Part shown: piece after piece, positions 9,456-50,030 of the stretch
Position numbering within the stretch: the stretch's first letter is position 1
Layout: the number at the start of each line of letters is the position of its first letter
Source of the DNA: Takifugu flavidus
Lineage: Eukaryota
Assembly: GCF_003711565.1 (NCBI RefSeq)
Contig: NC_079534.1
Coordinates: 9,717,991 to 9,781,990 of the forward strand
DNA length: 64,000 bases
Reading direction: 5' to 3'
Made by a program: the position numbers and the translations under genes
Notes under the pieces: model-generated
The model's database searches: none
What the model was told of the DNA's origin: nothing
What the model saw: only the letters and a program-made list of their open reading frames with translations

Positions 9456-9523
9456 GCATGTATTGACAGCATTCTGTGTGCATTGTACATTTTTGTATGT
9501 TCCCTTTTCATTGTCTCTTTTAG

Positions 9524-9586
9524 GATCAATGTTCTCTCCATGATAATATGTCAGGCAGTACTGACAGCTTGTCGGAAAACTCAAAG
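9524..9586 (+). CDS. Repeat-gene exon, Ser module (DQCSLHDNMSGSTDSLSENSK).
   Basis: tctcttttag acceptor. GTGAGC donor. 63 nt. Confidence 0.55.
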
Positions 9587-10438: not shown

Positions 10439-10501
10439 GAGAAACTAAGTGTAAAAAGTGAGCTGTCCACCAGCAAAGACAGTTTGTCTGAACATAACCA
10501 G
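10439..10501 (+). CDS. Repeat-gene exon, Ser module (EKLSVKSELSTSKDSLSEHNQ).
   Basis: Paralogue of 9139-9201 with the same splice signals. Confidence 0.55.
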
Positions 10502-10904
10502 GTGAGTAGCTCAATGTTATAGTTAGTGTTGTCCATGAAGGCGTTCATTCATCCACCTCACAGTAATTCATCAAGAACTAGTGTAGAGGTAACTGAACTG
10601 TTGAAGAAAGTGGAAGACATTTCACCTCTGATCTGAGCGGGTTCTATAGTTCTTGGTGTGGGTTCTAGAGTAGCTTGGTGCTCCTACTGGATCAAACGGT
10701 TGAATGGCTGTCATTGGAGTCGTTTTATTCTAGGTTGTATAATGTATAGTTGTGTCATTGAAGGTCATCGGCTAGTCAAAGGCCCTTAGAAACCACTAAA
10801 TTTGCTTGTTTCTACACCTGTGATGGTATTGTCTTTCATCACATTTCTTTTACTGAAGAAAATAAAATCTTCTGAAACTGAGCAGGTATTTATATTTCTT
10901 CCAG

Positions 10905-10976
10905 GATAAAGTTGGCTTATTTGGACGGATGTTTAGGAAGTCTCCAAAACCACCAGAAAACAATCAAACCAATGAG
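10905..10976 (+). CDS. Repeat-gene exon, basic module (DKVGLFGRMFRKSPKPPENNQTNE).
   Basis: Paralogue of 9384-9455 with a canonical GTATGT donor. Confidence 0.55.
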
Positions 10977-11044
10977 GTATGTAATGGCAGCATTCTGTGT
11001 GCATTATACATTTTTGTATGTTCCTTTTTTACTGTCTCTTTTAG

Positions 11045-11107
11045 GATCAACGTTCTCTCCATGATAATATGTCGGGCAGTAGTGACAGCTTGTCAGAAAA
11101 CTCAAAG
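11045..11107 (+). CDS. Repeat-gene exon, Ser module (DQRSLHDNMSGSSDSLSENSK).
   Basis: Paralogue of 9524-9586. AG acceptor and GTGAGC donor. Confidence 0.55.
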
Positions 11108-11474
11108 GTGAGCTCAAGAGAATGTGCTGCATTGTTATTGTGTCTGCTGAAAAGATGCATAGTGCCACCTAAAATGTGCATGTTAACATGCAGACTGATC
11201 ATGGAAATGTGTATGTTGACAGGGAAAAGGACTATTTTTTGGTGGCTTGCTCCGAAAAACTCCTAAAGAGGGAATACCTGTACAGGTAAAGATTTATGCA
11301 CAATTCTAGCTATCTATTAGCTATTCCTAGCTTCTATCTGAGTAGCTAATATAAATTAACCTCTATTCAAGGTTAAAGCGTCACTGCAAACACATCAATA
11401 ATACAGTAATGACTGAGTGTTTTGACAGCAAAATCACTGAAATAAGAATACCAGAATAATATGTTACTAAGATA

Positions 11475-15263: not shown

Positions 15264-15341
15264 GAGCTGGTTCAGGAGGTGAAGACTGAAAATAAGTTAA
15301 CTGGTAGCAGTGAAACGCTGTCAAATGCCAATGTCTCAAAG
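15264..15341 (+). CDS. Repeat-gene exon (ELVQEVKTENKLTGSSETLSNANVSK).
   Basis: ctttcag acceptor. GTACAA donor. 78 nt. Confidence 0.55.
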
Positions 15342-16408
15342 GTACAACAAACTCACACACACATACACACACACACCTCTACACGCATAGACACACAAAC
15401 ACTCACAGGCATCACCTACATCAGGGGTGGCCACACTTTTTCAGCATGCGAGCTACTTTTCAAATGACCAAGTCAAGAAGATCTACCAACTATAAATTTG
15501 CAAAACATACATTTATTCATAAATATATTGAGAATTCTTTATATGATCCATATATGTTGGTGTACCTCACATAACTACATGAATCCATATTGCTCAATAC
15601 AAATCTGTGCAAAATGTTTTTTGTCAAAAAACATTTTTTCAGCATGCGAGCTACTTACAAAATGACCAAGTCAAAATGATCTGCCCACCCCAAAAATGCA
15701 AAACATCTAATTATTTTCAAATGTATTGAGGATTCTGTATGTACAATGTATGCTGATGTACCTTGCATAACCGAATGAGCCAATATTGCAAAACACACAT
15801 AACAATTAACTAATTGGCTTAAAATCAGAGGTAATTCGCTGAATAGCTTAGTGCCGTTGTTTGCGCTTGATTGGTCACCTGAATGTCAAATTCAGTTGTC
15901 ATCTAACTGGCTGCCCTGTATATCAGTCAAGTGACGGGATGAATGATAGGCTGATATTTTTTAATGTCATGCTGCGATCGACCAGTACTACCTCCGTGAT
16001 CAACCGGTAGATCGCAATCGACGTAAGGAGCACCCCTGACCTACATCCATTCCCATAACCCAATCCTGAAAGTGGTACACAGAGAACAAGAATTAGACTG
16101 GTCCACACTGGCCGTGGGTAGGGCTGAGATGGTTGGTGCAGAGAATCTGGGCTCTCAAGGGCACAAAAACCCTGTCTGCTCACTCCATCAGTTTTGCAAC
16201 ATTTGTATGAATGTTACCAGAGATTATAGATCTACAAATTTCTACTTCTATCAGTCTTATCAATAAATACAAATGAACTTCTTCCATTAGCAGGCTGATG
16301 GTTGCACCTTGCTGCACAGTCACTGTATCTATATTCAGGAGGACTGTCTTTGATTGTACATTGACATTTTACCCTATTATAAAATATTTGTCCTGTCTAT
16401 CTTGTCAG

Positions 16409-16483
16409 GAGAAAGGTGGAAGTTTGTTCAGCGGACTTTTGAAAAAGACTCCCAAACCATCTGAGAAAACATCAGATTTTGCT
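16409..16483 (+). CDS. Repeat-gene exon, basic module (EKGGSLFSGLLKKTPKPSEKTSDFA).
   Basis: cttgtcag acceptor. GTAATT donor. 75 nt. Confidence 0.5.
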
Positions 16484-16575
16484 GTAATTTCATGCTTATT
16501 TGCTATGCAGTGAGAGTTTTTTCATGTGTAATGTGTTATTCTCTTTTTCATGAGACTTTTCTCTTTGTATTTCAG

Positions 16576-16662
16576 AACAGAGAGGCCCTGAGAGAGCTCT
16601 CAGCAAGCAATGAGGACTTGACTGCAAGCGAAGATGACTTGTCAGAAAAAAGCAACACCAAG
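16576..16662 (+). CDS. Repeat-gene exon, acidic module (NREALRELSASNEDLTASEDDLSEKSNTK).
   Basis: tatttcag acceptor. GTGAGG donor. 87 nt. Confidence 0.55.
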
Positions 16663-16743
16663 GTGAGGGGCAGAATGCAGCAAAATCGGGACACAAATGT
16701 CTTCAGTTGCAGGATTCACGGACTTTTCTTGTTTTGTTTGTAG

Positions 16744-16811
16744 GATAAAAATTTTTTAGCAACATTTTTAAGAAACCACAGAAAAAAGCATTGGATTCTG
16801 CAGCAGGGAAG
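16744..16811 (+). pseudogene. Frameshifted copy of the DKNIFSNIFKKPQK module exon. It is 68 nt, whereas the paralogous exons are 69 nt.
   Basis: Identical to the exons at 26967-27035 and 27948-28016 except for a 1-nt deletion in the aaaaat(a)ttttt run, which introduces an in-frame stop. Splice sites are intact. Confidence 0.45.
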
Positions 16812-16891
16812 GTGACTGGCTAAAATTGAACTAATGTAGCTCTATTGAGTGATGTTGCAGTGATAGTTATTGTCTGTTTTGTTGGATTGAG

Positions 16892-16963
16892 GAGCTGGAG
16901 GTAAAGACTGAAAATGAGTTATCTGGTAGCAGTGAGAAGCTGTCGGATGCAAATGTCTCAGAG
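16892..16963 (+). CDS. Repeat-gene exon ([24 protein letters not shown]).
   Basis: AG acceptor. GTACAG donor. 72 nt. Confidence 0.5.
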
Positions 16964-18699
16964 GTACAGCAATCTTTCTCTCACACCCACACGTGGACAC
17001 ACAAACACTCACAAGCATACACACCTACATCCATTCCCATAACCCAATCCTGAAAGTGGTACAGAGAGACCAGGAATTAGACTGGTCCAAACTGGCCGTG
17101 GGTAGGGCTGAGATGGTTGGTGCAGAGAATCTGGGCTCTCAAGGCCACAAAAACCCTGTCTGCTCACTCCATCAGTTTTTCAGAACTTGTGTTGTGAACT
17201 GCAGATGCACACTGAACCCCAAAGGTAGTTACACACACATGACGGAATTAGGTGTAAGTATTTTAGTGAGATTTGTCAATGGAAATTCACAGTTCACAAA
17301 AGTATAAGTCAACAGGGAGTTTGCAGTAGGCTGGGCAAGACGGGCAGTCTTTTGAAGCAGAAGGCAGGTGAGAAGATTAACCAGAGATGAGTCGCAGGTG
17401 TGTAATTGGTACACAGGGATGATCCAGGAAGCAGCCCTGTCCATCCTGAAAATAGACACAGAGTGGAAAGGTTGACAAGAAACAGAAGGGAGGGGCAGAG
17501 GGAAAACACTTGGAAGGAGGGGACAGAGAACTGGTGGAAAACTGGGAACTTTTAAACTTTTAACTGGAAAAAGTTGAAGTTCGGGTGGATCTTCATGGAC
17601 TCAAATGGATGGCAGAGGGGTTTATACTTTTTTTGATGGGGACGGGACCAATAAAGCGGGAAGAAACTTTACAGGACTTGTTGGCCAACTGAATGTTATG
17701 GGTGGACAACCAGACCTACTGACGTGGTTGGTAGAATGGAGCTTGTTGACAGTTGTGGTTGGCTGAGCGGTGGAAGTTGGAGTTGTGCGTGTGCTCCAGA
17801 GCCAACCTTGTAGCTTGCCAAGCCTTCCAAACCCTCTCAATAAACTGCTTCATGGATGGAACCGCAATCTCTCACTCCTGGAAGGAGAGACAGGGAGGCT
17901 GGGTGGTGGGAAGTTTAGGCAGAGCAAGGACGTGTGCGGTCTTTGAGGGATCCAGGGAAAACTGGATCATGGTGTGCAAAGATAATCTCTTTGTGGACTG
18001 GATGTAAACAAGATTCTTGTGGTCCATCCAAGCCACATAGTGTTGCTCTGCACTTTCCAGCAGGTGTCACCACTCCTCCAATGCGAACTTAATAGCCCGT
18101 AGCTCACAGTTTCCCACATCATAATTACACTCCGTGGATGTGAACCTACAAGGGAAAAAAAGGCACATGGATGGAGATGTTTATCGGTACCAGAGTACTG
18201 GGACAACATGGTCCCAACATCCGAGGCCTGGGGTCAAGTTGCATGAGGACCAGTGATGTGGAGAACAGAATCTTTAGCTTCTCAAAGGCTTCATCTTCCT
18301 TAGGAGACTAGCAGAAACTCACTTCTGTCAAAGTGAGTCTCAGGAGAGGTGAACCCTACTGTAGGAGTTGGTAAAGAAAACAATACAACTCCTTCCAATT
18401 TGCCGGGATCGGCCACTCTACCACTGCTCTGATCTTCTCTGGGTCTGTCATCATCCTACCACTCTGGATAATTCAGTTAAGGAAGGGAACAAAGTTAGCA
18501 TGAAAATCTTAATTTCTCCACTTTAACAAATAATTTGCTTTCCAGTAATCTTGCTAAAACCTGTTGCACATGGCCTACATGTTCCTTCATGCTCTAAAAG
18601 AAAATCAGAGAGCGGTTCAGAAAATCTCACAGAACATCATTACTTAGCACCTGAAATACTGCCGGGGGAATGGTGAGTCCAAACGGCATGACCAGATAC

Positions 18700-19810
18700 T
18701 CACAGTGGCCTAATGGGGGTGTTGAATGCCGTTTTCCATTCATCGCCCTTCGTTTCATTTCGTTTTCTCCCGCTTATCAGAGTCCGGGTCGCGGGGGCAG
18801 CAGCTTCAGGAAGGATGCCCAGACAGCCCTCTCCCCGGCCACTTTCATCAGTTCCTCCGGGGGGACCCCCAGCCACTCCCAAGCCAGGCGAGAGATGTAA
18901 TGCTTCCCCCTAGTCCTGGGCCAGCCACAAGGCCTCCTCCCGGGGGGACATGTCTGGAACACCTCTAAAGGGAGGTGTCCAGAACTCATCCTGCCCAGAT
19001 GCCCAAGCCACCCCAACTGACTCCTCTCGATGTGGAGAAGCAGTGGTTCCACTCCGAGCTCCTCCCGGGTGTCTGAGCTTCTCACCCTATCTCTAAGGTT
19101 GAGCCTGGCCACCTTGCGGTGCAAACTCATTTTGGCTGCTTGTAACCGCGACCTCATTCTTTCGGTCATCACCCAACGTTGATGGCCATAGGTGAGGATT
19201 GGGACGTAGATCGACCGGTAAATTGAGAGCTCGGCCTTCCGGCTCAGCTCCTTCCTCATCATGACTGATCGGTTAAGCGCCGCATCACGTCTGACGCTGC
19301 TCCGATCCGCCTGTCGATCTCCCGTTCCACCCTACCCTCACTCGTAAACAAGGTCCCCAGATACTGGAACTCCTCCACCTGAGGCAGGACCTCTTCCCCG
19401 ACCCGGAGAAGTCACTCTACCTTTTTCCAAGCGAGGACCATGGACTCTGACTTGGAGGTGCTGATCCACATCGCTGCCGCTTCACACTCGGTCGTGAACC
19501 TCCCCAGCATGTGTTGGAGGTCCCTGCTCGATGGTGCCAGAAGAACTACGTTATCCGTAAAAAGCAGCGACGAGATCTCCCGCCCACTGAACTCGACACC
19601 CTCCACTCCCCGGCTGCGCCTAGAAATTCTGTCCATAACAGTTATGAACAGAACCGGTGACAAATGGCAGCCCTGGCGGAGTCCAACCCTCACTGGGAAC
19701 GCGTCCAACTTACAACCGGCTATCCGGACCAAGCTCCTCTTCCTTCGGTACAGGGACTTCTGCTCTGGAAATTGGATGGTCCACCTCCTGGTCTCCCGAC
19801 TCTGTTCCAC
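18700..19810 (-). mobile_element. L2/Rex-type non-LTR retrotransposon, RT and C-terminal domain (3' part of an element split by a later insertion).
   Basis: ORFs GLRQGCHLSPVLFITVMDRISRRSRGVEGVEFSGREISSLLFTDNVVLLA and ..YRSIYVPILTYGHQRWVMTERMRSRLQAAKMSLHRKVARLNLRDRVRSSDTREELGVEPLLLHIERSQLGWLGHL.. . Confidence 0.75.
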
Positions 19811-20754
19811 CTTGTACTGAGACCTGGCTTCAGGAGGATTATGTTAGCTTAAATGAATCTACTCCTCCTACCCATCTTAATTATCACATTCCTCGTGTTA
19901 CTGGTCGAGGAGGGGGAGTGGCAGCAATCTATCACTCCAAGTTATTAATTAATCCTAGACCAAAACATGACTCCAGTTCATTTGAAAGCCTGACTCTTGG
20001 CATCACCCATCTGAGGTGGAAGACAGAAAAGCCACTTTTGTTTGTAGTTGTATATCGGCCCCCTGCTGAGCCACATTCAGAGTTCCTTTCTGAGTTCTCT
20101 GATTTCTTATCTGATTTGGTCCTTAGAACGGACAAAGTCATTATTATTGGAGACTTTAATATCCATGTAGACGTTGTAAATGACAGCTTTAGAAATGGCT
20201 TCATTTCTTTACTTGAGTCAGTTGGTTTCCTCCAGCAGATAAACCAACCAACTCATAGCTTCAACCACACCTTAGATCTAGTTCTGACTTATGGTGTTGA
20301 GGTAGAACACGTGTCAGTGTTCCCTCAGAACCCACTCCTGTCAGATTAAGATTAAGATTAAGATGTACTTTATTCATCCCCGGTTGGGAAATTGAATTGT
20401 AGTAGCAACCTATACAAATATAAGTATAACAGAATAAATAAATACAGATAAGATTAGAACGTTATAAGCATATATACACAGCATATATTATAAGCATATA
20501 TATATATAATATATACATATTATAAGCATTATAAGCATATATACATAAATATAGAACAAAATAGAAATAAAATTACAACATAAACATTACCCAATTCCTC
20601 ATAAACATTACACAAGATCATTCTATGATCACTTTTACATTTATGATTAAGGATTCTTCTATCCTCAGAGCACAGTCTTACTATAGCAGATGTCTTTCAG
20701 ATAATGCTGTAGCTAAGTTTAAGGAAGCAATCCCTGTGCTAATCCCAGGACCAC

Positions 20755-21845
20755 TGGGCCAGATTCACGAAGCGTTCTTACGAACAAATTTGTTCTTAAG
20801 TCCCACTTACGAACAGTTGACGAAGATTGTGGCATTCACCAATTTCTTCTTATCCTGGATTTATTCGTAGGTAAGAACAAATCCTACGAACACTCAGGAG
20901 TACTCTTGCGCACATTTCAGTGCCGACATGTTGGCATGGTTGTGTTTTCTTCTCTTGTGCAGTTCAATAAAATTCAATATTACAATGATAATTCTGTCAT
21001 ATTTATTTATTTATTTGTTTATTTCCTATTTTTGGTGATTTACGGAGAATTTTAAAATTACGTAAATGTGCCAATGACTTAACATTAATCAACCAAATTG
21101 GAAACCATGCCAAAACTGTCTTTTTATTTGATTTTATCTTGATTTATTTTATTAGGGGATCAAGGATATGCCCTGGCTCCCTGGTTGTTGACACCACTGA
21201 CCAACCCTCAGACTCCACAGGAGTTTTATTCAATCAGATGCATGCGCGCAGTCGCTCCACCATTGAACGCACCATCGGCATGTTAAGGGGCGCTGGATGT
21301 GTTTGGACACAGAGCCACAACCCCGTGAGGATGTGCGTCCTGACGCAATGATGGGGCCAGACTGCAGGCACGCGGTTCACGTTCGAGCGCGATTAATTGC
21401 CCGTTTGTGAATAAAATGCATTATTGTCACAATCCGAGCACAGCTTTTACACGTTTATTTTTTTTTTACATTCTTCTTTTTTTTACATTCTCGTTGATTT
21501 CTTTAAGCGTGTTGGCTATAGTCATCAGGGTTGAGGCAATTTTATCAAGCGTGTTAGCCATCCTTTCTTTATTGTTCAACACGGCGTCAGAAATCAGGCG
21601 TGGAGAGGCAAGCTTTGGGCATTTCGCTTTGGGCATTTGGCTGCTTTTTGCTCTGTCTACAGGGTCCTGCTGCAGTTCCTTTTATGGGCATTAGTGGGCG
21701 GTGACTTATGCTAATCGTATGTTAATTAGACTCACCTGGCACGCGCTTTCAATTTACGAACAGATGGCATTCATCAATCTAAGAACACAGCTGCGAACAA
21801 TTCTGGGGCTTACGAACGCGTTGATGAATCCGACGTAGGGTTTTC
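20755..21845. mobile_element. Harbinger/PIF-like non-autonomous DNA transposon nested in the L2.
   Basis: Imperfect TIRs: attcacgaagcgttcttacgaac (left) and gcttacgaacgcgttgatgaat (right, reverse complement). Internal fragment ..IERTIGMLRGAGCVW.. resembles the Harbinger transposase C-terminus. Flanked by AT-rich microsatellites. Confidence 0.4.
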
Positions 21846-22786
21846 TTAGTTAGTGAAACTCCAGACTTGTCTTAAAGACATAAAGTCCTGGATGTCTTCA
21901 AATTTCCTCCTCCTTAACCCGGGAAAAACTGAGGTCATGGTGTTTGGTCCTGAACCTCTCAGGGATAGATTAGATCACATGATCACTCTAGATGGTATCT
22001 CATTAGCATTTAGTCTCTCTGTGAGGAATCTTGGAGTAACTTTTGATCAAAATCTCTCCTTCACCTCACACATTAAATTAGTCTCTCGAAGTGCCTTTTT
22101 TCACCTGAGAAACATCACAAAGATCAGGAAACTACTGACACGGCATGATGCTGAAAAGTTAGTCCATGCATTTGTTACTTCCAGGCTGGACTATTGTAAT
22201 TCTTTATTATCAGGGTGTCCAAACAACTCTTTAAGAAGCCTCCAGTTGATCCAAAATGCTGCAGCCAGAGTTCTGAAAGGTATTGACAAGAGATCACATA
22301 ACATAACTGGCATCTCTTCATTGGCTGCCCGTTAAATTTAGAATAATTTTTAAAACCCTTCTTTTGACCTACAAGGTCCTCAGAGGCCTAGCTCCATCCT
22401 ACCTGGAGGAGCTAGTGACACCTTACCAGCCCAATAGACCGCTCCGCTCTCAGAATGCTGGTCCACTTGTGGTTCCCAGAGTCTCTAGGAGTAGAATGGG
22501 GGCCGAGCATTGAGCTACCAGGCCCTCCTGCTATGGAACCAGCTCCCTGTCCAGGTACGGGAGGCTGACTCCATCTCTACTTTTAAGATCAGACTTAAAA
22601 CCTACCTCTTTAAAAAAGCTTATTGTTACTAATTCTGCAGTTCCAGTTACTATCATAGACAGACAAACTGTCATACTTAGGGGGTCGTCTAATCATTAGT
22701 TTAACATCTTAGCTATGCTGTTATAGGCCAAGGCTGCCGGGGTCCAGAAACATGATCACCTGACAGGCCTCTGTCACCCCGGTCAT

Positions 22787-22890
22787 GGTTTCCTCTCCTC
22801 TCCTCTCCTCTCCTCTCTCCTCTCCTCTCCTCTCCTCTCCTCTCCTCTCCTCTTCCTCTTCCTCTTCCTCTTCCTCTTCCTCCTCCTCTT
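22787..22890. repeat. (CCTCT/CTCTT)n microsatellite.
   Basis: Seen directly in sequence. Confidence 0.9.
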
Positions 22891-22927
22891 CAAGTAGACT
22901 AGTTATGTTGATTCTTGTGTAGTTTTT

Positions 22928-22930
<3 letters not shown>

Positions 22931-22966
<36 letters not shown>
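22931..22966. repeat. Poly-C homopolymer, 36 nt.
   Basis: Seen directly in sequence. Confidence 0.95.
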
Positions 22967-23087
22967 TTCTGTATTCATTTACAGGTATCTCCGCCTTCGG
23001 AGCTGTGTGATGACCTCCGGCCCCGCTGACCCACTCGGCTGGCGGCTTGCATAAATAGTGTATTTTTGTATGTGTTTCTGTCCTCTG

Positions 23088-23172
23088 TGCCTCTCCTCTC
23101 CTCTCCTCTCCTCTCCTCTCCTCTCCTCTCCTCTCCTCTCTCCTCTCCTCTCTCCTCTCCTCTCCTCTCCAT
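23088..23172. repeat. (CTCCT)n microsatellite.
   Basis: Seen directly in sequence. Confidence 0.9.
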
Positions 23173-23399
23173 TCCATCCTCTACCTCTCCTCCCCCCTCT
23201 CCTCTCTCTCTACCCAGCCGGCCATCAGCAGGAGGGTCCCCCTACATGAGCCTGGTCCTGCTCTAGGTTTCTTCCTGTTAAAGGGGAGTTTTTCCTTGCC
23301 ACTGTTGCTTGTTGGGGGTTAGGCCCCAGTAATCTGGAAAGCGCCTTGAAACAATTTGGATTGTATAAGACGCTATATAAATAAAGATTGATTTGATTT

Positions 23400-23660
23400 G
23401 TTGATACATGTTGGTAGGATTGAAGAGCTCCTGGAATTATTCCTTCCACCGCCGGATACTTGCCCCAGGAGATATCAGCTGCTCCCCACCCACACCTAGT
23501 GCAGTGTGAGTGAGTTGCCGCCTGCCGCCCCTAAGGCGCAGGACAGTTTGCCAGAATCTTCTCAGTGCCGACCGAAAGTCTTCCTCCATAGTCTCACCAA
23601 ACTCCTCCCACGCCCGAGTTTTTGCCTCTGCGACTGCCGAGGCCGCTTCGCCAGCCTGTA
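23400..23660 (-). mobile_element. Upstream (pre-RT) part of the same minus-strand LINE, separated from 18700-19810 by the plus-strand L2 insertion.
   Basis: Minus-strand translation EAKTRAWEEFGETMEEDFRSALRRFWQTVLRLRGGRQ..IRRWKE.FQELFNPTNMY, typical of the ORF2 region preceding the RT in teleost L2-like LINEs. Confidence 0.55.
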
Positions 23661-25824
23661 CCGATCAGCTACATTCTTCGCCCTTACAGATCCTAATCAA
23701 GTGGTAGGTATTTCGGAGACCCAACTTGGTAAAAATCTTTTCTTCCTAGAGAGGCTCCAAAGTAGAGGATTTTAATGGTAATAGGTACCGGTTTTTGACT
23801 GTTATGCTGTTCAGACGCTGTAGTCTATACATGGAGGAAGGGTTCAGTTCTTCTTTTCCACAAAAAAGAAACCTGCTTCGAGAGGTGAGGGGGACAGTCG
23901 GATAATCTCTGCAGCGAGGGACTCCACGATGTACTTCTTTATTGCCTCCCTCTCAGTGTGCAAACAGTGGAATAGCCAACTGGGGAGAAGAGAAGCACCT
24001 GTCAACTTTTTTGCACAGTCATAGGGTTGATGCAGAGGCAAGAAGAAAGCCTTCTCCTTGCTGAAAACCTCAAACAAGTCATGGTACTATTTAGGCACAT
24101 TGGAGAGATTGGGAGGTGCCTGGGGCAACTGAACCCCCACCAAGAGTCAATGGGGATTTTAGACATAATGAATGACAATGGGAACTCCAACTTGCCACTT
24201 TTCCCCGTACCCAGTCAATTTAAGGATTGTGGTGGTGTAACCAAGGGTAACTCAGTACCAAAGGCGTTTTTGGGTGCTGAAATGACGAGGAATGATAGTT
24301 GTGCAGAATGGTTTCCGGACATGATGAGAGTGACTGGGACAGTCCTGCGGTTGATCTGGGTGAAGGGATATGGTGACGGTGAAGGGATACGGTAAAGGAT
24401 TCATGGAGCAGCCTGCCTGTGCACCCAATTCCTCATCCAACAAACTGTCCTGGTCCCCTGAATCAACCAAGGCTTGGAGATGGAGAACTGGACTTCCAAC
24501 ACATAATGATGTGGACAAGAGAAGTTGTTCCAAGGGGAGGCGAACCCTGGCCTGCCAGTACCCCACTGGTACATACATACATCCACCAGAAATTAAATGC
24601 TCGGAACGGCTACAGTATAAATACTCACAGCTCGGATCTTGACCTCGACCGGGCTGGACGACATACTGACATGCAGGATGCTAGCTCCTGGCGTCTTGCT
24701 CTCAGGCAATTCTCCATGAAAATAGCCAGAGCGACGAGAGAATTTAGATCCAGGGATTTGACCTGGAGAGTGATTTCATTGCGCAGCTGATCACTTGGCC
24801 CCTGCAGGTAAAACTCCCCTGAAGCGCTGCCTCGTTCCACCCAGTATCCACAGCTAGGGTCCAAAAATCCACAGAGTAATCAGCCAAAGAGCACTCTTCT
24901 CTGGCAGAGAATCAGCAAGCATGTGGAGGCATCTCCAGAGTGATCTGGGTGACCAAAAATTGCCTTCTGGCTTTGTTACAGCTCGACGTAAAGCTTCGCT
25001 TCAAGGCGGTTGTGGGAACTGCCTAGGCCAGTGCCTTGCCTCATAGCAGGCCAAGTTAGGAAGATAGGAAACCTTTAAAAAGTCATTAGGAAAAGAATGT
25101 GCCTTCTGTTGGAAAACTAACTAGCATTGAAGCAGGAAATCATCACTGCCTTAGCCACATTAGTACTGTGGTTGATGAGGGTCTGTAACAGTTGTCCTTG
25201 TTGACCAAGTAAGGTTTCCTAAGAGGAGGAGGCACGTTGTGTTTCTGCGGGGTCCATACTGGCCAAATTGTTCTGTAACGAACTGTAGGCACAAACCAAA
25301 CCCCAAAGGCAGATACACACAGCTGAATGAGGTGTAAATTTTTGACTGAGATATGGCAATGGAAATCCACAGTTCGCAAAAATGGAATAAGTCAACAGGG
25401 CGTTTGCAGCAAGCTGGGCGAGACAGGCAGGATCAGGCGACAAAGTTGGAGTACTGCAAATGATGTACAGACTCTAGAATTTCAGAACAAGATTAACCAA
25501 GCAAACCAGTCAAAAAGAGTTTTTAGCCAAGATTTTACCAGAGGGTTGAACAAGGAATTGTTAATGATGTAAGTGTGAACCAGTCTTTGAAAGTGGAAGG
25601 CAGGTGAGATGATTAGGGAGAACACCTAACAATTTGTATGAATTTGTCCAGGGACTATACTGTAGATCTATACAATTTTATACTTCTATCACAGTCTTAT
25701 ACACAAAGACAAATGAACTTCTTCCATTAGCAGGCAGATGGTTGCACCTTGTTGCACATTCACTGTATTTTTTATTCAGATGAACTGTATGTGATTTTAT
25801 ATCACTTTTCAATTTGTAATTAAG

Positions 25825-25899
25825 AACAGAGAGCTCTCAGCAAGCAATGATGACTTGACAGCAAGTGATGATGACTTGTCAGAAAAAAGCAACACCAAG
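25825..25899 (+). CDS. Repeat-gene exon, acidic module (NRELSASNDDLTASDDDLSEKSNTK).
   Basis: AG acceptor. GTGAGA donor. 75 nt. This is the first exon after the gypsy insertion. Confidence 0.5.
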
Positions 25900-25986
25900 G
25901 TGAGAGGTAGAATGAAAATCAAAATACAAAATCGAGATACAAATGTCATCAGTTGCAGGATTCACTGACTATTTTTTTGTTTGTAG

Positions 25987-26055
25987 GATAAAAATATTTT
26001 TAGCAACATTTTTAAGAAGCCACAGAAACAAACACTGGATGCTGCAGCAGGGAAG
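25987..26055 (+). CDS. Repeat-gene exon, basic module (DKNIFSNIFKKPQKQTLDAAAGK).
   Basis: tttgtag acceptor. GTGACT donor. 69 nt. Confidence 0.55.
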
Positions 26056-26139
26056 GTGACTAGCTAAATTTGAGCTAATGTAGCTCTATTGAGTGATGTT
26101 GCACACAATGTTAGTTATTGTCTTTTTTGCTGGATTGAG

Positions 26140-26211
26140 GAGCTGGAGGTGAAGTCTGAAAATGAGTTGTCTGGTAGCAATGAGAAGCTGTCGGATGCAA
26201 CTGTCTCAAAG
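26140..26211 (+). CDS. Repeat-gene exon (ELEVKSENELSGSNEKLSDATVSK).
   Basis: AG acceptor. GTACAG donor. 72 nt. First exon of tandem unit 1. Confidence 0.55.
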
Positions 26212-26632
26212 GTACAGCAATCTTTCTCTCACACCCACACACAAACACTCACAAGCATGCACACCTACATCCATTCCCATAACCCAATCCTGAAAGTGGT
26301 ACAGAGAGACCAGGAATTAGACTGGTCCACACTGGCCGTGGGTAGGGCTGAGATGGTTGGTGCAGAGAATCTGGGTTCTCAAGGCCACAAAAGCCCTGTC
26401 TGCTCACTCCATCAGTTTTGCAACATTTGTATGAATGTGACCAGAGATTATAGAGCTACAATTTTCTACTTCTATCAGTCTTATCAATAAATACAAATGA
26501 ACTTCTTCCATTAGCAGGCTGATGGTTGCACCTTGCTGCACAGTGACTGTATGTATATTCAGGAGGACTGTCTTTGATTGTACATTGACATTTTATCCTG
26601 TTATAAAATATTTGTTTTGTCTGTCTTGTCAG

Positions 26633-26707
26633 GAGAAAGGTGGAAGCTTGTTCAGCGGTCTTTTGAAAAAGACTCCCAAACCATCTGAGAAAACATCAGA
26701 TTTTGCT
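26633..26707 (+). CDS. Repeat-gene exon, basic module (EKGGSLFSGLLKKTPKPSEKTSDFA).
   Basis: cttgtcag acceptor. GTATTT donor. 75 nt. Confidence 0.5.
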
Positions 26708-26798
26708 GTATTTCATGCTTATTTGCTATGCAGTGAGCGTTTTTTCATGTGTAATGTGCCATTCTCTTTTTCATGAGACTTTTCTCTTTGTATTTCAG

Positions 26799-26885
26799 AA
26801 CAGAGAGGCCCTGAGAGAGCTCTCAGCAAGCAATGAGGACTTGACTGCAAGCGATGATGACTTGTCAGAAAAAAGCAACACCAAG
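26799..26885 (+). CDS. Repeat-gene exon, acidic module (NREALRELSASNEDLTASDDDLSEKSNTK).
   Basis: tatttcag acceptor. GTGAGG donor. 87 nt. Confidence 0.55.
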
Positions 26886-26966
26886 GTGAGGGGCAGAATG
26901 CAGCAAAATCGGGACACAAATGTCTTCAGTTGCAGGATTCACGGACTTTTTTTGTTTTGTTTGTAG

Positions 26967-27035
26967 GATAAAAATATTTTTAGCAACATTTTTAAGAAAC
27001 CACAGAAAAAAGCATTGGATGCTGCAGCAGGGAAG
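26967..27035 (+). CDS. Repeat-gene exon, basic module (DKNIFSNIFKKPQKKALDAAAGK).
   Basis: tttgtag acceptor. GTGACT donor. 69 nt. Confidence 0.55.
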
Positions 27036-27119
27036 GTGACTGGCTAAATTTGAGCTAATGTAGCTCTATTGAGTGATGTTGCACACAATGTTAGTTATTG
27101 TCTTTTTTGCTGGATTGAG

Positions 27120-27191
27120 GAGCTGGAGGTGAAGTCTGAAAATGAGTTGTCTGGTAGCAATGAGAAGCTGTCGGATGCAACTGTCTCAAAG
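27120..27191 (+). CDS. Repeat-gene exon (ELEVKSENELSGSNEKLSDATVSK).
   Basis: Identical to 26140-26211. First exon of tandem unit 2. Confidence 0.55.
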
Positions 27192-27612
27192 GTACAGCAA
27201 TCTTTCTCTCACACCCACACACAAACACTCACAAGCATACACACCTACATCCATTCTCATAACCCAATCCTGAAAGTGGTACAAAGAGACCAAGAATTAG
27301 ACTGGTCCAAACTGGCCGTGGGTAGGGCTGAGATGGTTGGTGCAGAGAATCTGGGTTCTCAAGGCCACAAAAACCCTGTCTGCTCACTCCATCAGTTTTG
27401 CAACATTTGTATGAATGTGACCAGAGATTATAGAGCTACAATTTTCTACTTCTATCAGTCTTATCAATAAATACAAATGAACTTCTTCCATTAGCAGGCT
27501 GATGGTTGCACCTTGCTGCACAGTGACTGTATGTATATTCAGGAGGACTGTCTTTGATTGTACATTGACATTTTATCCTGTTATAAAATATTTGTTTTGT
27601 CTGTCTTGTCAG

Positions 27613-27687
27613 GAGAAAGGTGGAAGTTTGTTCAGCGGTCTTTTGAAAAAGACTCCCAAACCATCTGAGAAAACATCAGATTTTGCT
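27613..27687 (+). CDS. Repeat-gene exon, basic module (EKGGSLFSGLLKKTPKPSEKTSDFA).
   Basis: Paralogue of 26633-26707. Donor is GTAATT. Confidence 0.5.
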
Positions 27688-27779
27688 GTAATTTCATGCT
27701 TATTTGCTATGCAGTGAGCGTTTTTTCATGTGTAATGTGCCATTCTCTTTTTCATGAGACTTTTCTCTTTGTATTTCAG

Positions 27780-27866
27780 AACAGAGAGGCCCTGAGAGAG
27801 CTCTCAGCAAGCAATGAGGACTTGACTGCAAGCGATGATGACTTGTCAGAAAAAAGCAACACCAAG
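27780..27866 (+). CDS. Repeat-gene exon, acidic module (NREALRELSASNEDLTASDDDLSEKSNTK).
   Basis: Identical to 26799-26885. Confidence 0.55.
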
Positions 27867-27947
27867 GTGAGGGGCAGAATGCAGCAAAATCGGGACACAA
27901 ATGTCTTCAGTTGCAGGATTCACGGACTTTTCTTGTTTTGTTTGTAG

Positions 27948-28016
27948 GATAAAAATATTTTTAGCAACATTTTTAAGAAACCACAGAAAAAAGCATTGGA
28001 TTCTGCAGCAGGGAAG
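27948..28016 (+). CDS. Repeat-gene exon, basic module (DKNIFSNIFKKPQKKALDSAAGK).
   Basis: Paralogue of 26967-27035. Confidence 0.55.
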
Positions 28017-28096
28017 GTGACTGGCTAAATTTGAACTAATGTAGCTCTATTGAGTGATGTTGCAGTGATAGTTATTGTCTGTTTTGTTGGACTGAG

Positions 28097-28168
28097 GAGC
28101 TGGAAGTGAAGACTGAAAATGAGTTATCTTGTAGCAGTGAGAAGCTGTGGGATGCAAATGTCTCAAAG
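28097..28168 (+). CDS. Repeat-gene exon ([24 protein letters not shown]).
   Basis: AG acceptor. GTACAA donor. 72 nt. Followed by a (CT)n(CA)n microsatellite. Confidence 0.5.
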
Positions 28169-28181
28169 GTACAACAATCTT

Positions 28182-28182
<1 letters not shown>

Positions 28183-28262
<80 letters not shown>
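28183..28262. repeat. (CT)n(CA)n compound microsatellite.
   Basis: About 9 CT units followed by about 31 CA units. Confidence 0.95.
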
Positions 28263-28266
<4 letters not shown>

Positions 28267-28775
28267 TTGACACGTGGACACACAAACACTCACAGGCATA
28301 CACACCAACATCCATTCCAACAACCCAAACTGGCAAGAGATAAATAGAGAAAAGGAATTAGACTGGTCCAAACTGGCCCTGGGTAGGGCTGAGATGGTCG
28401 GTGCAGGGAATGTGGGCTCTCAAAGCCACAAAAACCCTGTCCATCAGTTTTGCAACATTTGTATGAATGTGACCAGAGATTATAGATCTATACGATTTTC
28501 TACTTCTATCACAGTTTTATCAAAAAAGACAAATGAACTTCTTCCATTAGCAGGCAGATGGTTGCATCTTCTTGCACATTCACTGTATCTGCATTCAGGA
28601 GAATTATCTTTGATTGTAAATCAAGTTTGTTCAGTGGACTCTTGAAAAAGACTTCCAAACTATCTGAAGAGACATCAAATTCTACTGTAATTTGGTCTTC
28701 TTTTGCTGTGCAGTGTATTTTATTTTATGGTGTTTATATAAAAAGAGCAGCCTACACATATTTTTTCTTCTTCAG

Positions 28776-28847
28776 GAGAGAGAGGGACAGAGAGTGCTCT
28801 CAGCAAGCAATGATGACCTGATGGCCAGCGATGAAAACACCACCAAG
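28776..28847 (+). CDS. Repeat-gene exon, diverged acidic module (EREGQRVLSASNDDLMASDENTTK).
   Basis: cttcttcag acceptor. GTGAGG donor. 72 nt. Confidence 0.45.
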
Positions 28848-28911
28848 GTGAGGAGCAGAATGCTGCAAATTTAGGATACAAATGTCTCCAGTTGGGACAT
28901 TCACTGACTTT

Positions 28912-28980
28912 TTTCCTGCAGCATAAAAATATTTTTAGCAACATGTTTAAGACGCCACAGAAACAAGTATGGGATGCTGC
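28912..28980 (+). CDS. Repeat-gene exon, basic module (HKNIFSNMFKTPQKQVWDAAAGK).
   Basis: cctgcag acceptor. GTGACT donor. 69 nt. Confidence 0.5.
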
Positions 28981-29069
28981 CGCAGGAAAGGTGACTGGCT
29001 AAATTTGAACTAGTATAGTTGTAATAAGTGATTATCTTAATAATGGTAAATGTGTTTTGTTGGATTGAG

Positions 29070-29141
29070 GAGCTGGAGGTGAAGACTGCAAATGAATTAT
29101 CTGGTAGCAATGAGAAGCTGTCAGATGCCAATGCTCCAAAG
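29070..29141 (+). CDS. Repeat-gene exon (ELEVKTANELSGSNEKLSDANAPK).
   Basis: AG acceptor. GTACAA donor. 72 nt. Confidence 0.5.
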
Positions 29142-32198: not shown

Positions 32199-32613
32199 GG
32201 CTTTGGAGCAGGCCGCAGATCGTGTTTACATGGCAGCCTGTCTATTTGTCCGCCTGTTTAACCAGCGTGGAGCATCTCTGCAACATCGTATCCTGGAGCT
32301 TTTGGCCCTGGCAGATGCAGCAGATCAATTTCATAAGAAAACTGTTACAGCTGCTGTGGGTGGAGGTGTTGCTAGTGTTGCAGGCAGTATTGCAACAATT
32401 ACAGGCCTCATTCTGGCGCCTTTTACGTTTGGGGCGTCTATTATAGTCACCGCAGTAGGGATCAGTGTTGCGACTGCGGGCAGCATCACTTCAGCAACAG
32501 CCAACATTACGGATGCTGTTCACTCTAATATGGACCGCAAGAAGTTGGAAAAAATGATCCAGGACTACCAGGATGAGATCAACGTCATCCGAGAGTGTTT
32601 GGAGTTTGTGCAG
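32199..32613 (+). CDS. APOL-like exon encoding a Gly/Ala-rich membrane hairpin (ALEQAADRVYMAACLFVRLFNQRGASLQHRILELLALADAADQFHKKTVTAAVGGGVASVAGSIATITGLILAPFTFGASIIVTAVGISVATAGSITSATANITDAVHSNMDRKKLEKMIQDYQDEINVIRECLEFVQ).
   Basis: ctgtgtag acceptor at 32191-32198. Donor cag|GTAGGA at 32614. Homologous to residues about 45-165 of the APOL-like ORF at 23-1036. Confidence 0.7.
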
Positions 32614-32743
32614 GTAGGAGTTGGTTAATTATCCTCAAGTTACATCAAGTAAAGGCATATAATGTATATATACATGTACATTCACATGTATAATTTTATG
32701 TAATGAGTGTGTGTTCAGATATAATCTTTTGTGCCTCTTGCAG

Positions 32744-34159
32744 GCAGGAATGGACACCTTACAGGAATGGGATTTTGATAAATACTCCCAAAGTGCTGCC
32801 AAAAAAGCTCTGAACCACAACATCAAGCATGTGATGAAGGAGGGTGGCCGTGCTGGAAAAGCTTTGATGATAAACACAGATAAACTCATAAGCACTGTGC
32901 AGATTTTAGGCACTGCTGGAGGAGCAGCAAAGGCTGTGCAGGCCATTAGTGTCACAACAGGGGTCATGTCCGCGTTATTCCTGGCTCTGGATGTTTTCTT
33001 TCTTGCCAAGGACTCCCATGAACTCCGCAAGGGTGCCAAAACCAAGTTTGCCAACAAAATAAGGGATGTTTGTAAAGAGCTTCAAGATGGCCTTCTGGAA
33101 TTGAACAAAGTGAAAACACAGCTGCAGAAAACAATGGATGGCATTGAGGTGGAGGAGTATGAAGAGATCCATGAGGTAGAGGTGGAAGTTGATGATGATT
33201 TAGCATCTGACCCAAAGAAGCTGGCTGAATTGGAACAAGAGTTGGATCTCCTGGAGGAAAAACTGAACAAGAAGACAGAGGAAGATGAGAAAAAGTATAA
33301 TGAGATGAAAAAAGATAAGGGAAACACTGCTAAGGGCACAAAAACTGGAGAGGACAAAGACAAAGTGGACGACCAAGATGGAAATAAGGAAACTTTGAAG
33401 ACAAAACACAATAAAGAAAAAAAGCTTGACTCAAAATTTGAAATTACAGATGAGAAAAATGAGCAGAAAATTGAAAAGGTCAATTTGGCAAAAGTCGAAG
33501 TTGTAAAAGACAAATCTCCGAGAGAAAGCAAAACAGACAAAGAGACAGAGAACTCTGTTACTGCTGAAAAAAAAAAACAGGGGAGCAGGAATGACACAAA
33601 CAAAGAAAAGGAGAAAATTAAGACCAAAGAACATGATAAATATGCACAGTATGAGTCAAAACAAGAACAACATGGAAGAGCACATTTAAAGAGAGAAAGT
33701 GAAAGGAGTAAGAGCAGAAGAGATGCAGAAAGAGAAAGCCATACAAAGAAAGAAGTGGATCATGGGAGAAAGGTAGAGAGACGAGCAATGGACGGAAGAG
33801 CTGAAATGTCAAAGAAAAGTGAAGAGACGGAGAACAGTGGGACACAGAGGGAAGATGACTTTAGAAAAAAGTCACATCTGAGTCAAATGAGACGAGATCA
33901 CCCTGACCACGAATCAACAAACCATAGAGAGGAGTATAAGAGACATCACACAAGGACAGCAGTGGCACGTGAAGAGTCAATGGAGGCCAGAGTGAGAGGT
34001 GGGAATGGGAGTATCAGGAAGCATTCTGGAAGCACACAGGATAAAGAGAAGGTGGAGCAGAGGAAGAGCAGAGATGGTGAGAGAGACAAAGAGGGAAGAC
34101 GCAGTCACAGAGGATCTCGAGGACGATCCAGCATCCTAGAAGACGGCCTATATATTTAA
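32744..34159 (+). CDS. APOL-like terminal exon. It starts AGMDTLQEWDFDKYSQSAAKK, contains FLAKDSHELRKGAKTKFANKIRDV, and is followed by a charged K/E/R/D-rich low-complexity tail of about 330 aa. Stop at 34157-34159.
   Basis: cctcttgcag acceptor at 32743. In frame with the previous exon across a 130-nt intron. Homologous to the C-terminal half of the ORF at 23-1036, then extends beyond it with the charged tail. Confidence 0.65.
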   Translation, partial: AGMDTLQEWDFDKYSQSAAKKALNHNIKHVMKEGGRAGKALMINTDKLISTVQILGTAGGAAKAVQAISVTTGVMSALFLALDVFFLAKDSHELRKGAKTKFANKIRDVCKELQDGLLELNKVKTQLQKTMDGIEVEEYEEIHEVEVEVDDDLASDPKKLAELEQELDLLEEKLNKKTEEDEKKYNEMKKDKGNTAKGTKTGEDKDKVDDQDGNKETLKTKHNKEKKLDSKFEITDEKNEQKIEKVNLAKVEVVKDKSPRESKTDKETENSVTAEKKKQGSRNDTNKEKEKIKTKEHDKYAQYESKQEQHGRAHLKRESERSKSRRDAERESHTKKEVDHGRKVERRAMDGRAEMSKKSEETENSGTQREDDFRKKSHLSQMRRDHPDHESTNHREEYKRHHTRTAVAREESMEARVRGGNGSIRKHSGSTQDKEKVEQRKSRDGERDKEGRRSHRGSRGRSSILEDGLYI

Positions 34160-50005: not shown

Positions 50006-50030
50006 CGATAATTATGTATTTCTCTAACAG

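What the first reader, a model, noticed from the sequence alone, without database searches (positions are those of the whole stretch)
26089..28047. Near-perfect 979-bp tandem duplication of a three-exon unit (a very recent exon-array expansion)
Units 26089-27068 and 27069-28047 are almost identical across exons and introns alike. More diverged copies of the same unit lie at 15.2-17.0 kb and 28.0-29.2 kb. An older two-copy unit of about 1.3-1.5 kb lies at 8.9-11.1 kb. This indicates ongoing unequal-crossover expansion, so the array is probably copy-number polymorphic and hard to assemble. The copy number in this window could be an assembly collapse.
Basis: seen in the sequence. Interest (0 to 1): 0.6.

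Follow-up and report, generated by a model that had tools for sequence, protein, structure and literature searches.

The report
Recent four-exon duplication in pufferfish apold1a
A 980-base block carrying four tiny in-frame exons has recently been copied head-to-tail inside the repetitive front half of a pufferfish apolipoprotein-L-domain gene; it is real, but an ordinary example of how such exon arrays grow.

Summary
The duplication is real. 26089-27068 and 27069-28049 are 98.9% identical (10 mismatches, 1 indel), in exons (99.3%) and introns (98.8%) alike. The period, 980 bp, matches that of older neighbouring units.

The unit holds four exons, not three: 72, 75, 87 and 69 nt, all phase 0 with AG/GT sites, 101 codons in total.

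The window is Takifugu flavidus. RefSeq model XP_056913620.1 ("titin homolog isoform X5") maps 100% onto it and uses all eight duplicated exons. Orthologues are named apold1a: a roughly 850-aa N-terminal array of mini-exons, alternately acidic/serine-rich ("ELSASxDSLSE") and basic ("EKGGxFSGxFKKxPKP"), followed by an ApoL domain (PF05461).

The four-exon block is single-copy in Poeciliopsis and about five-fold in Takifugu, with three decayed exons. Anableps, Scomber and Cololabis carry their own exact module duplicates, so expansion recurs across teleosts.

A second, non-identical Takifugu gene model also contains two copies, which argues against an assembly artefact. Copy-number polymorphism could not be tested.

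Best reading: in-register unequal crossover, or slippage, within a pre-existing array. Later gene conversion may have blurred its age. This is a new member of a known kind and of modest interest.

The parts
26089..27068 (+). Tandem copy 1 (unit c), 980 bp. The phase of the boundary is arbitrary to about +/-50 bp.
27069..28049 (+). Tandem copy 2 (unit d), 981 bp, 98.9% identical to copy 1
26140..26211 (+). Exon E1c, 72 nt, phase 0, ELEVKSENELSGSNEKLSDATVSK (acidic/Ser). Its acceptor is a GAG|GAG (NAGNAG) pair.
26633..26707 (+). Exon E2c, 75 nt, phase 0, EKGGSLFSGLLKKTPKPSEKTSDFA (basic). Donor is GTATTT.
26799..26885 (+). Exon E3c, 87 nt, phase 0, NREALRELSASNEDLTASDDDLSEKSNTK (acidic/Ser)
26967..27035 (+). 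Exon E4c, 69 nt, phase 0, DKNIFSNIFKKPQKKALDAAAGK (basic)
27120..27191 (+). Exon E1d. The RefSeq model uses the downstream AG, so its exon starts at 27123.
27613..27687 (+). Exon E2d. It has one synonymous difference from E2c, and its donor is GTAATT because of the 1-bp indel.
27780..27866 (+). Exon E3d, identical to E3c
27948..28016 (+). Exon E4d, with one Ala>Ser difference from E4c
15264..16844 (+). Older unit a: E1a 15264-15341, E2a 16409-16483, E3a 16576-16662, E4a 16744-16811. E4a has a 1-bp deletion and is frameshifted. The stretch 16039-16844 is 96.5% identical to unit c.
16845..17179 (+). 5' part of unit b (E1b 16892-16963 plus the start of its intron), 92% identical to unit c
17180..25627 (.). 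8.4-kb transposon-rich insertion that splits the E1-E2 intron of unit b. It includes a reverse-transcriptase fragment at 19415-19843 on the minus strand.
25628..26088 (+). 3' part of unit b. E2 is deleted, E3b is 25825-25899 (12 nt shorter) and E4b is 25987-26055.
28050..29031 (+). Older unit e, about 85% identical to unit c. E1e is 28097-28168. The E2e remnant at 28618-28692 has lost its acceptor. E3e is 28776-28847 and E4e is 28922-28990. A (CA)32 run lies at 28199-28263 in its first intron.
29070..29141 (+). E1f, the last E1-type exon of the array
8856..11144 (+). Older two-copy block at the 5' end of the array. Each copy has three mini-exons (acidic, basic, acidic): 9139/9384/9524 and 10439/10905/11045.
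4205..4258 (+). Exon containing the conserved N-terminus MEACQVKPQVKKKGQL
32199..34159 (+). The last two exons (32199-32613 and 32744-34159). They encode the ApoL domain (PF05461) and a K/E/R-rich tail with the stop codon.

Best explanation
SHOWN. The window is Takifugu flavidus. Positions 4.2-34.2 kb on the + strand hold one gene, which orthologues name apold1a and T. flavidus RefSeq calls 'titin homolog'. Its product has two parts. The first is an N-terminal region of about 850 aa, built from some 37 mini-exons of 27-87 nt, all phase 0. These alternate between an acidic serine-rich type (consensus ELSAS-x-D-S-LSEN) and a basic type (consensus EKGG-[IL]-FSG-[ML]-FKK-[ST]-PKP). The second is an ApoL domain with a charged tail. 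Inside the array a four-exon block (acidic, basic, acidic, basic; 303 coding nt in 980 bp) is present about five times. Its two youngest copies are the reported tandem pair.

INFERRED MECHANISM (about 0.8). The two homologous chromosomes or sister chromatids paired one unit out of register within the already periodic array. A crossover followed, or alternatively replication slippage or template switching. The exchange point lay near 27020-27070, in E4 or the E4-E1 intron. Such an exchange duplicates exactly one period, whatever its phase. Because every exon is phase 0 and all splice sites were copied, the result is an in-frame gain of 101 residues.

INFERRED EFFECT (about 0.4). The extra block raises the number of acidic/basic motif pairs in a disordered N-terminal arm ahead of the membrane-active ApoL domain. 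The basic, aromatic 'FSGxFKK' motif resembles MARCKS-type basic-hydrophobic lipid-binding segments. The acidic exons contain S-x-x-[DE] sites. This resemblance was not tested.
For: The tandem pair and the older periodicity are shown.

Four exons per unit have AG/GT sites and lengths divisible by 3. RefSeq protein P0129 = XP_056913620.1 maps by exact matches over 1501 of 1503 residues and uses all eight duplicated exons.

The ApoL domain scores 80.9 and 35.7 bits against a cut-off of 25.9. The best homologues are apold1a proteins at 60-70% identity over 94-100% of the query.

In Poeciliopsis locus L001 the same four motifs are four separate phase-0 exons in single copy, followed by the same 'GIFKRSSSFDNLLDE' exon.

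A conceptual 41-exon splice gives one open 1490-aa frame.

Two E3 copies followed by E3e occur in a second Takifugu model. That model differs from the window at three or more nucleotides, so it comes from another genome.

Independent exact module repeats occur in Anableps (71 aa, period 88), Scomber (43 aa, period 43) and Cololabis (35 aa, period 107).

The motif consensus comes from 13 orthologues. No fold is predicted: pLDDT 56, pTM 0.15. There is no Pfam or PDB match for the unit.
Against: No reads, transcripts or population data could be reached, so neither exon inclusion nor copy number is verified directly.

Exon and intron identity between units are equal: 84.9 vs 84.8% for c/e and 92.1 vs 91.9% for c/b. 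The duplicated exons therefore show no extra constraint. Three exons of older units are already dead.

Six of the 10 mismatches fall within 135 bp (P about 0.03). Unit a, 10 kb away, is 96-98% identical to units c and d. Both facts point to gene conversion, which makes the age uncertain.

The functional reading of the motifs rests on resemblance alone.
Confidence: 0.8

Rival explanations
1. The two units are not young. An older duplication has been kept nearly identical by repeated gene conversion or unequal exchange among array members (concerted evolution).
For: Identities are mosaic. Unit a (16.0-17.2 kb), separated by an 8.4-kb transposon block, is 96-98% identical to units c and d, while the adjacent units b and e are only 81-95%. 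Mismatches between c and d are clustered, with 6 of 10 in 135 bp (P about 0.03), and are a mixture of c-specific and d-specific states. The pair appears to be shared by two Takifugu genomes.
Against: The high-identity block is almost exactly one period long and has fairly sharp edges. That is what a single exchange predicts. Conversion tracts would usually be shorter and patchier.
Confidence: 0.15
2. The second copy is an assembly artefact, for example two haplotypes of one unit laid down in tandem. Alternatively the true array is longer and has been collapsed.
For: Identity near 99% is in the range of heterozygosity. A second near-perfect tandem duplication (1631 bp, 3 mismatches) lies only 9 kb away in the same assembly. 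No reads were available.
Against: A non-identical Takifugu gene model has the same two-copy exon order. The period equals that of the older diverged units, and the junction is in register. There are no Ns or gaps. The RefSeq annotation accepts both copies.
Confidence: 0.05
3. The 980-bp unit is a satellite or transposable element that merely contains exon-like open frames.
For: The introns of the unit contain a conserved ~170-bp segment repeated in every unit. The surrounding introns are rich in transposons.
Against: Within the window the unit occurs only in this array and always on the + strand. Its four open frames are orthologous to four annotated single-copy exons in Poeciliopsis and to motifs in more than 12 orthologues. 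No Rfam or transposon protein match falls in the unit.
Confidence: 0.01

Closest known systems
LPA kringle IV type 2 coding repeat in human apolipoprotein(a) (from my own knowledge)
   Same: It is a head-to-tail array of a multi-exon unit inside a gene, with near-identical copies in exons and introns alike. Repeats are added in frame, and the array grows by unequal exchange.
   Different: The LPA unit is 5.5 kb with two exons that encode a folded kringle domain. It has up to 40 or more copies and proven population copy-number variation. Here the unit is 0.98 kb with four mini-exons that encode unstructured motifs. Only two young copies exist among about five, and no population data are available.
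Tandem exon duplication as a general route to repeat proteins and cassette exons (Kondrashov & Koonin 2001; Letunic, Copley & Bork 2002; from my own knowledge)
   Same: Symmetric phase-0 exons are duplicated together with their splice sites. The length variation among RefSeq isoforms of orthologues (Osmerus X1-X7, 1290-1533 aa) fits cassette use of such exons.
   Different: Most described cases are single exons. Here a four-exon block is the unit, and it was amplified on top of an older two-exon periodicity.
Nopp140 / treacle / dao-5 type alternating acidic-serine and basic repeats
   Same: The composition alternates between acidic serine-rich and lysine/proline-rich stretches, often with one repeat per exon. 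NCBI names two orthologues 'nucleolar protein dao-5-like'.
   Different: There is no sequence-family match. The protein ends in an ApoL domain. The basic motif has a conserved hydrophobic core (FSGxF) that Nopp140 repeats lack.
ApoL family and APOLD1
   Same: The C-terminal half is a bona fide ApoL domain. Orthologues are named apold1a.
   Different: Mammalian APOLD1 is described as a short, highly conserved protein on human chromosome 12 (PMC8557400), with no such N-terminal array. This gene lies next to TTLL12 and another ApoL gene.

Membership tests
Tandem (in-register) multi-exon duplication within a coding array | Two adjacent head-to-tail copies of equal length, with high identity in exons and introns | tested here: met
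   The copies are 980 and 981 bp and 98.9% identical. Exons are 99.3% and introns 98.8% identical.
Tandem (in-register) multi-exon duplication within a coding array | All duplicated exons are symmetric in phase, keep their splice sites, and preserve the reading frame | tested here: met
   The eight exons are 72, 75, 87 and 69 nt (twice), all with AG...GT sites. The spliced model is open for 1490 aa.
Tandem (in-register) multi-exon duplication within a coding array | The duplicated exons are included in mRNA | not testable with these tools
   RefSeq model XP_056913620.1 includes all eight, but its transcript support cannot be inspected. No Logan or other transcript contig was found.
Copy-number-polymorphic coding repeat (VNTR-like) | Different unit numbers among individuals | not testable with these tools
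   No reads or population assemblies are available. One other Takifugu model shows the same two-copy order.
ApoL family (Pfam PF05461) | The domain scores above the curated threshold | tested here: met
   Scores are 80.9 bits (32182-32625) and 35.7 bits (32663-34156) against a cut-off of 25.9.
Teleost apold1a orthologue group | Best full-length similarity to apold1a proteins, the shared MEAC..KPEVKKK..PKPPPKP start, and the motif array followed by ApoL | tested here: met
   Identity is 60-70% over 94-100% of the 3' half. The N-termini and arrays are the same in Pungitius, Osmerus and Sardina apold1a. The exon structure matches Poeciliopsis.
Orthologue of mammalian APOLD1 | Reciprocal best match and conserved synteny with APOLD1 | not tested
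   Only the source names are available. The neighbours here are TTLL12 and an ApoL gene, which does not obviously fit the human chromosome 12 location.
Titin (the RefSeq name is 'titin homolog') | Ig/FN3 domains, a kinase domain or PEVK-type repeats | tested here: not met
   Pfam finds nothing in the unit and only ApoL in the 3' exons. The name reflects repetitiveness only.
Nopp140 / dao-5 / treacle | Family-specific domains or significant sequence similarity | tested here: not met
   There is no Pfam hit for the repeat unit at E<=0.01 and no PDB relative.
Transposable element or satellite | Dispersed copies, transposon proteins or terminal repeats | tested here: not met
   All copies lie colinear within 15.2-29.2 kb on one strand. 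Only this 64-kb window could be searched.

The most novel reading that the evidence does not exclude
The N-terminal mini-exon array of teleost apold1a is a fast-evolving module whose copy number is itself under selection. Lineages would repeatedly add or lose acidic/basic motif pairs to tune how strongly a membrane-active ApoL domain is tethered to, or held off from, membranes or partner proteins. The Takifugu pair would then be one snapshot of an adaptive, possibly polymorphic, dosage-of-motif system, not neutral repeat turnover.
Probability: 0.1. Interest if true: 0.5.

Novelty: new member of a known kind. Interest (0 to 1): 0.27.

Why it matters
On its own it matters little. It is a clean, datable example of an in-frame multi-exon tandem duplication in a gene that public annotation names inconsistently ('titin homolog', 'dao-5-like', 'claspin-like', 'myb-like protein X', 'futsch').

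Its practical value is for annotation. It explains why gene models at this locus are split, truncated or contaminated with transposon ORFs, as in TWW73545.1. It also shows that these names all refer to one family: apold1a with a modular N-terminal array.

The broader point is that the array has expanded independently in several teleost lineages. That would make apold1a a convenient natural series for asking what the 'ELSASxDSLSE / GGxFSGxFKKxPKP' module does, since no paper found here addresses it.

Tried and rejected
- TRF found nothing at this period because its limit is 500 bp.
- Rfam found no family at gathering score in the whole window and only sub-threshold noise in 25.5-29.5 kb, so there is no evidence for an intronic RNA gene that might explain the conserved intron segment.
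- Pfam and PDB sequence searches of the unit found nothing.
- AlphaFold without an alignment gave no confident fold. This is only weak support for disorder.
- The word-indexed protein search with the unit returned only three hits and missed the locus's own RefSeq protein. The exhaustive HMMER search with the Poeciliopsis N-terminal protein recovered it.
- Exact-product look-ups for P0001, P0129 and two copy-specific ORFs (26522-26776, 27502-27717) found no contigs. I therefore obtained no independent read-level or cross-species DNA for Takifugu.
- blastp of each protein against itself did not report off-diagonal repeats, so I replaced it with a direct diagonal scan.
- My first regex counts of motifs per orthologue were unreliable and are not used.
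- Literature searches for apold1a and rp71-1g18.13 returned no papers.
- The exon-versus-intron divergence test for purifying selection showed no difference, so I do not claim selective maintenance.
Full report
OBSERVATION

BLASTN of 26089-27068 against the window finds 27069-28049 at 98.88% identity over 981 columns, with 10 mismatches and one 1-bp gap. The repeat finder independently reports families spaced 980-981 bp apart. Comparing each position x with x+980 gives 98-100% identity from about 26040 to about 27050. Identity drops to 88-94% on both sides, where older units continue the same periodicity. The young block is therefore one period long, and its junction lies near 27020-27070. TRF did not report the pair only because its maximum period is 500. 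The window contains no Ns.

The ten mismatches are at 26259, 26277, 26304, 26313, 26330, 26393, 26647, 26951, 27021 and 27054. The indel is at 26709/27690. Two mismatches are exonic: one synonymous Ser codon in E2 and one Ala>Ser change in E4. Exon identity is 301/303 and intron identity is 669/677.

These are 16039-17179 (92-96.5%), 15275-15396 (80%), 28050-29156 (76-88%) and a two-copy block at 8856-11144 (78-94%). A partial unit lies directly upstream at 25628-26088.

WHAT THE UNIT ENCODES

Translation and splice-site inspection show four exons per unit, not three. All are phase 0 and flanked by AG and GT.

- E1, 72 nt: ELEVKSENELSGSNEKLSDATVSK
- E2, 75 nt: EKGGSLFSGLLKKTPKPSEKTSDFA
- E3, 87 nt: NREALRELSASNEDLTASDDDLSEKSNTK
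- E4, 69 nt: DKNIFSNIFKKPQKKALDAAAGK

The net charges are -3, +2, -4 and +4. The unit is thus itself a doublet of an older two-exon module, one acidic and serine-rich, one basic.

WHICH GENE

Downstream open frames at 32182-32625 and 32663-34156 match Pfam ApoL (PF05461) at 80.9 and 35.7 bits against a cut-off of 25.9. A search with the 3' half of the gene returns teleost proteins at 60-70% identity over 94-100% of the query. Many of them are named apold1a or si:rp71-1g18.13.

An exhaustive HMMER search with the N-terminal Poeciliopsis protein P0003 recovered P0129. This is RefSeq XP_056913620.1, 'titin homolog isoform X5' of Takifugu flavidus. It maps onto the window by exact matches over 1501 of 1503 residues, from 4205 to 34156. 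It uses all eight exons of the tandem pair. For E1d it uses the second AG of a GAG|GAG acceptor, so that exon starts at 27123.

The window is therefore T. flavidus, and the exon array is already in a public gene model. My own 41-exon splice gives a single open 1490-aa frame with an 854-aa N-terminal region. That region is 15% Ser, 18% Asp+Glu and 16% Lys+Arg.

Flanking genes are another ApoL gene (2-1033, +), TTLL12 (44.8-57.7 kb, +) and a TPR-repeat gene on the minus strand (60.7-64 kb).

STRUCTURE OF THE ARRAY

Read 5' to 3', the four-exon block occurs about five times.

- Unit a: E1 15264, E2 16409, E3 16576, E4 16744.
- Unit b: E1 16892, then an 8.4-kb transposon-rich insertion at 17180-25627 in its first intron. 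E2 is deleted. E3 is at 25825 (12 nt shorter) and E4 at 25987.
- Units c and d: the young pair.
- Unit e: E1 28097, an E2 remnant whose acceptor is deleted, a shortened E3 at 28776, and E4 at 28922.
- A lone E1f at 29070.

E4a carries a 1-bp deletion, ATATTTTT to ATTTTTT. The RefSeq model skips it, and also skips E1b, E3b and E2e.

Identities are layered and mosaic. Units c and d are 98.9% identical. Unit a is 96-98% identical to c and d, although it lies 10 kb away. Unit b is 91-95% identical and unit e about 81-85%. In every comparison exons and introns are equally diverged. I therefore see no sign that the duplicated exons are more constrained than their introns.

COMPARISON WITH OTHER FISHES

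In Poeciliopsis prolifica (locus L001) the RefSeq models place each motif in its own phase-0 mini-exon of 39-81 nt. The block DAVSDSDISASTENLSDNKQ / EKTGGLFSRLLKKTPKGEKTETP / DREAQRDPSASCEDLAENNK / EKNIFSNKFKKTLKPAAEGAKAETQ is present once. It is followed by the same 'GIFKRSSSFDNLLDE' exon that follows the Takifugu array. This block is the clear counterpart of E1-E4. The amplification is therefore specific to the pufferfish lineage.

Full-length orthologues of 1100-1700 aa exist in Sardina, Osmerus, Solea, Scomber, Cololabis, Pungitius and others. All have the MEAC..KPEVKKK..PKPPPKP start, an array of 620-1000 aa and then ApoL. Thirteen of them give two consensus motifs: 'ELSAS[NS]D[SN]LSEN..K' and 'KEKGG[IL]FSG[ML]FKK[ST]PKP'.

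Several carry their own exact internal repeats. Anableps has 71 identical residues at period 88, Scomber has 43 at period 43, and Cololabis has 35 at period 107. Module duplication has thus happened independently and recently in several lineages.

Osmerus and Pholidichthys have isoform series that differ by tens to hundreds of residues. This is compatible with cassette use of the mini-exons.

REAL OR ARTEFACT

No reads are available. One indirect check is P0002 (UniParc UPI0000363156), which is a Takifugu gene model. It differs from the window by a stop/Gln codon at 25024-25026 and by 'ISEEM' versus 'ISEKI' at 31555-31569, so it comes from another genome. From the age of the identifier I infer that this is the old T. 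rubripes assembly, but I could not verify that.

P0002 contains an E1 of the c/d type. This is followed by two consecutive 'NREALRELSASNEDLTASDDDLSEKSNTK' exons and then the unit-e E3. Only E3c and E3d have that sequence in the window: E3a has SEDDL, and E3b lacks EALR. The same two-copy order therefore exists elsewhere. This argues against a false duplication. It also suggests that the event predates the split of the two genomes.

MECHANISM

An exchange between array members paired one period out of register duplicates exactly one period, whatever the phase. That fits the one-period length of the young block and its junction in a stretch where neighbouring units are 90-94% alike. Replication slippage or template switching would give the same product.

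Six of the ten mismatches fall within 135 bp (simulation P about 0.03), and unit a is very similar to the distant units c and d. These facts show that gene conversion also acts in the array. '1% divergence' should therefore not be read as a clean clock.

FUNCTION

The unit has no Pfam or PDB relative. A single-sequence AlphaFold model has pLDDT 56 and pTM 0.15, which is consistent with disorder but only weakly. The basic exons have a conserved hydrophobic/aromatic core flanked by Lys and Pro. The acidic ones carry S-x-x-[DE] sites. By resemblance only, this suggests alternating lipid- or partner-binding and phospho-regulated segments ahead of a membrane-active ApoL domain, so a duplication would raise valency.

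No paper on apold1a was found. The APOL literature describes mammalian APOLD1 as a short conserved protein on chromosome 12 (PMC8557400). Orthology of the fish gene to it is not established here.

VERDICT

The interpretation as a recent unequal-exchange expansion is well supported. Polymorphism and assembly accuracy remain untested.

The phenomenon is a textbook kind, and the exons are already in RefSeq. The mildly new elements are two. First, the many oddly named fish proteins are one apold1a family with a modular mini-exon array. Second, that array expands recurrently across lineages.

Noticed in passing
window 36946-38576 and 38576-40206: A second near-perfect tandem duplication, 1631 bp with 3 mismatches. 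Its edges are sharp and the flanks show no older periodicity. It lies in transposon-rich intergenic DNA and includes the 3' end of a Tc1-like transposase gene (39911-41041, minus strand; HTH_Tnp_Tc3_2 + DDE_3). Two such duplications within 12 kb may be worth checking against reads.
   Followed up: partly
window 11473-12959 (+) and 43166-44215 (-): Two copies of a pogo/Tc5-like transposon in inverted orientation, 85-90% identical. The first lies in an apold1a intron. Its ORF (12089-12322) was spliced into the GenBank gene model TWW73545.1 as if it were coding exon sequence.
   Followed up: partly
window 16744-16811: Exon E4a has a 1-bp deletion in an A/T run (68 nt instead of 69). The GenBank model reads through it into a wrong frame and terminates. 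The RefSeq model skips it. It could be a true pseudo-exon or a homopolymer error of the long-read assembly.
   Followed up: partly
window 26138-26142, 27118-27122 and the other E1 exons: All E1-type exons have a tandem GAG|GAG (NAGNAG) acceptor. The RefSeq model uses the upstream AG for E1c and the downstream AG for E1d, so the two otherwise identical exons differ by one Glu codon.
   Followed up: no
window 9455/9456 versus 10976/10977: The basic exon of the older 5' pair has a GC donor in copy 1 (GAG|gcatgt) and a GT donor in copy 2 (GAG|gtatgt). The RefSeq model uses both.
   Followed up: no
window 2-1033 (+): A separate ApoL-domain gene (129 bits to PF05461), encoded as one long open frame that runs off the left end of the window. 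The locus therefore holds at least two ApoL-family genes in tandem, upstream of TTLL12.
   Followed up: partly
window 17180-25627: An 8.4-kb block of nested transposon fragments inside one intron of the array. It includes a reverse transcriptase at 19415-19843 (minus strand), a poly-C run of 36 at 22931-22966, and (TCCTC)n at 22791-22889 and 23090-23210. Direct repeats at its edges (17215-17347 and 25299-25430) are 82% identical.
   Followed up: no
window 28199-28263: A perfect (CA)32 microsatellite in the first intron of unit e. It sits exactly where the other units have a short CA-rich stretch, so the microsatellite grew within one unit after the units diverged.
   Followed up: no
locus L001 18786-19043 (Poeciliopsis prolifica): RefSeq splits the orthologous gene into two models, 'nucleolar protein dao-5-like' (321 aa) and an ApoL protein (653 aa), only 150 bp apart. 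The first ends by reading through the donor of the 'FDNLLDE' exon. Xiphophorus and Anableps models join the two parts, so the split is probably an annotation error.
   Followed up: partly
window 44778-57656 (+) and 60741-63999 (-): There are TTLL12 exons (SET_TTL and TTL domains) and, on the other strand, TPR-repeat exons of a neighbouring gene. Human TTLL12 lies on chromosome 22 with APOL1-6, whereas APOLD1 is on chromosome 12. The name apold1a may therefore not reflect orthology.
   Followed up: no
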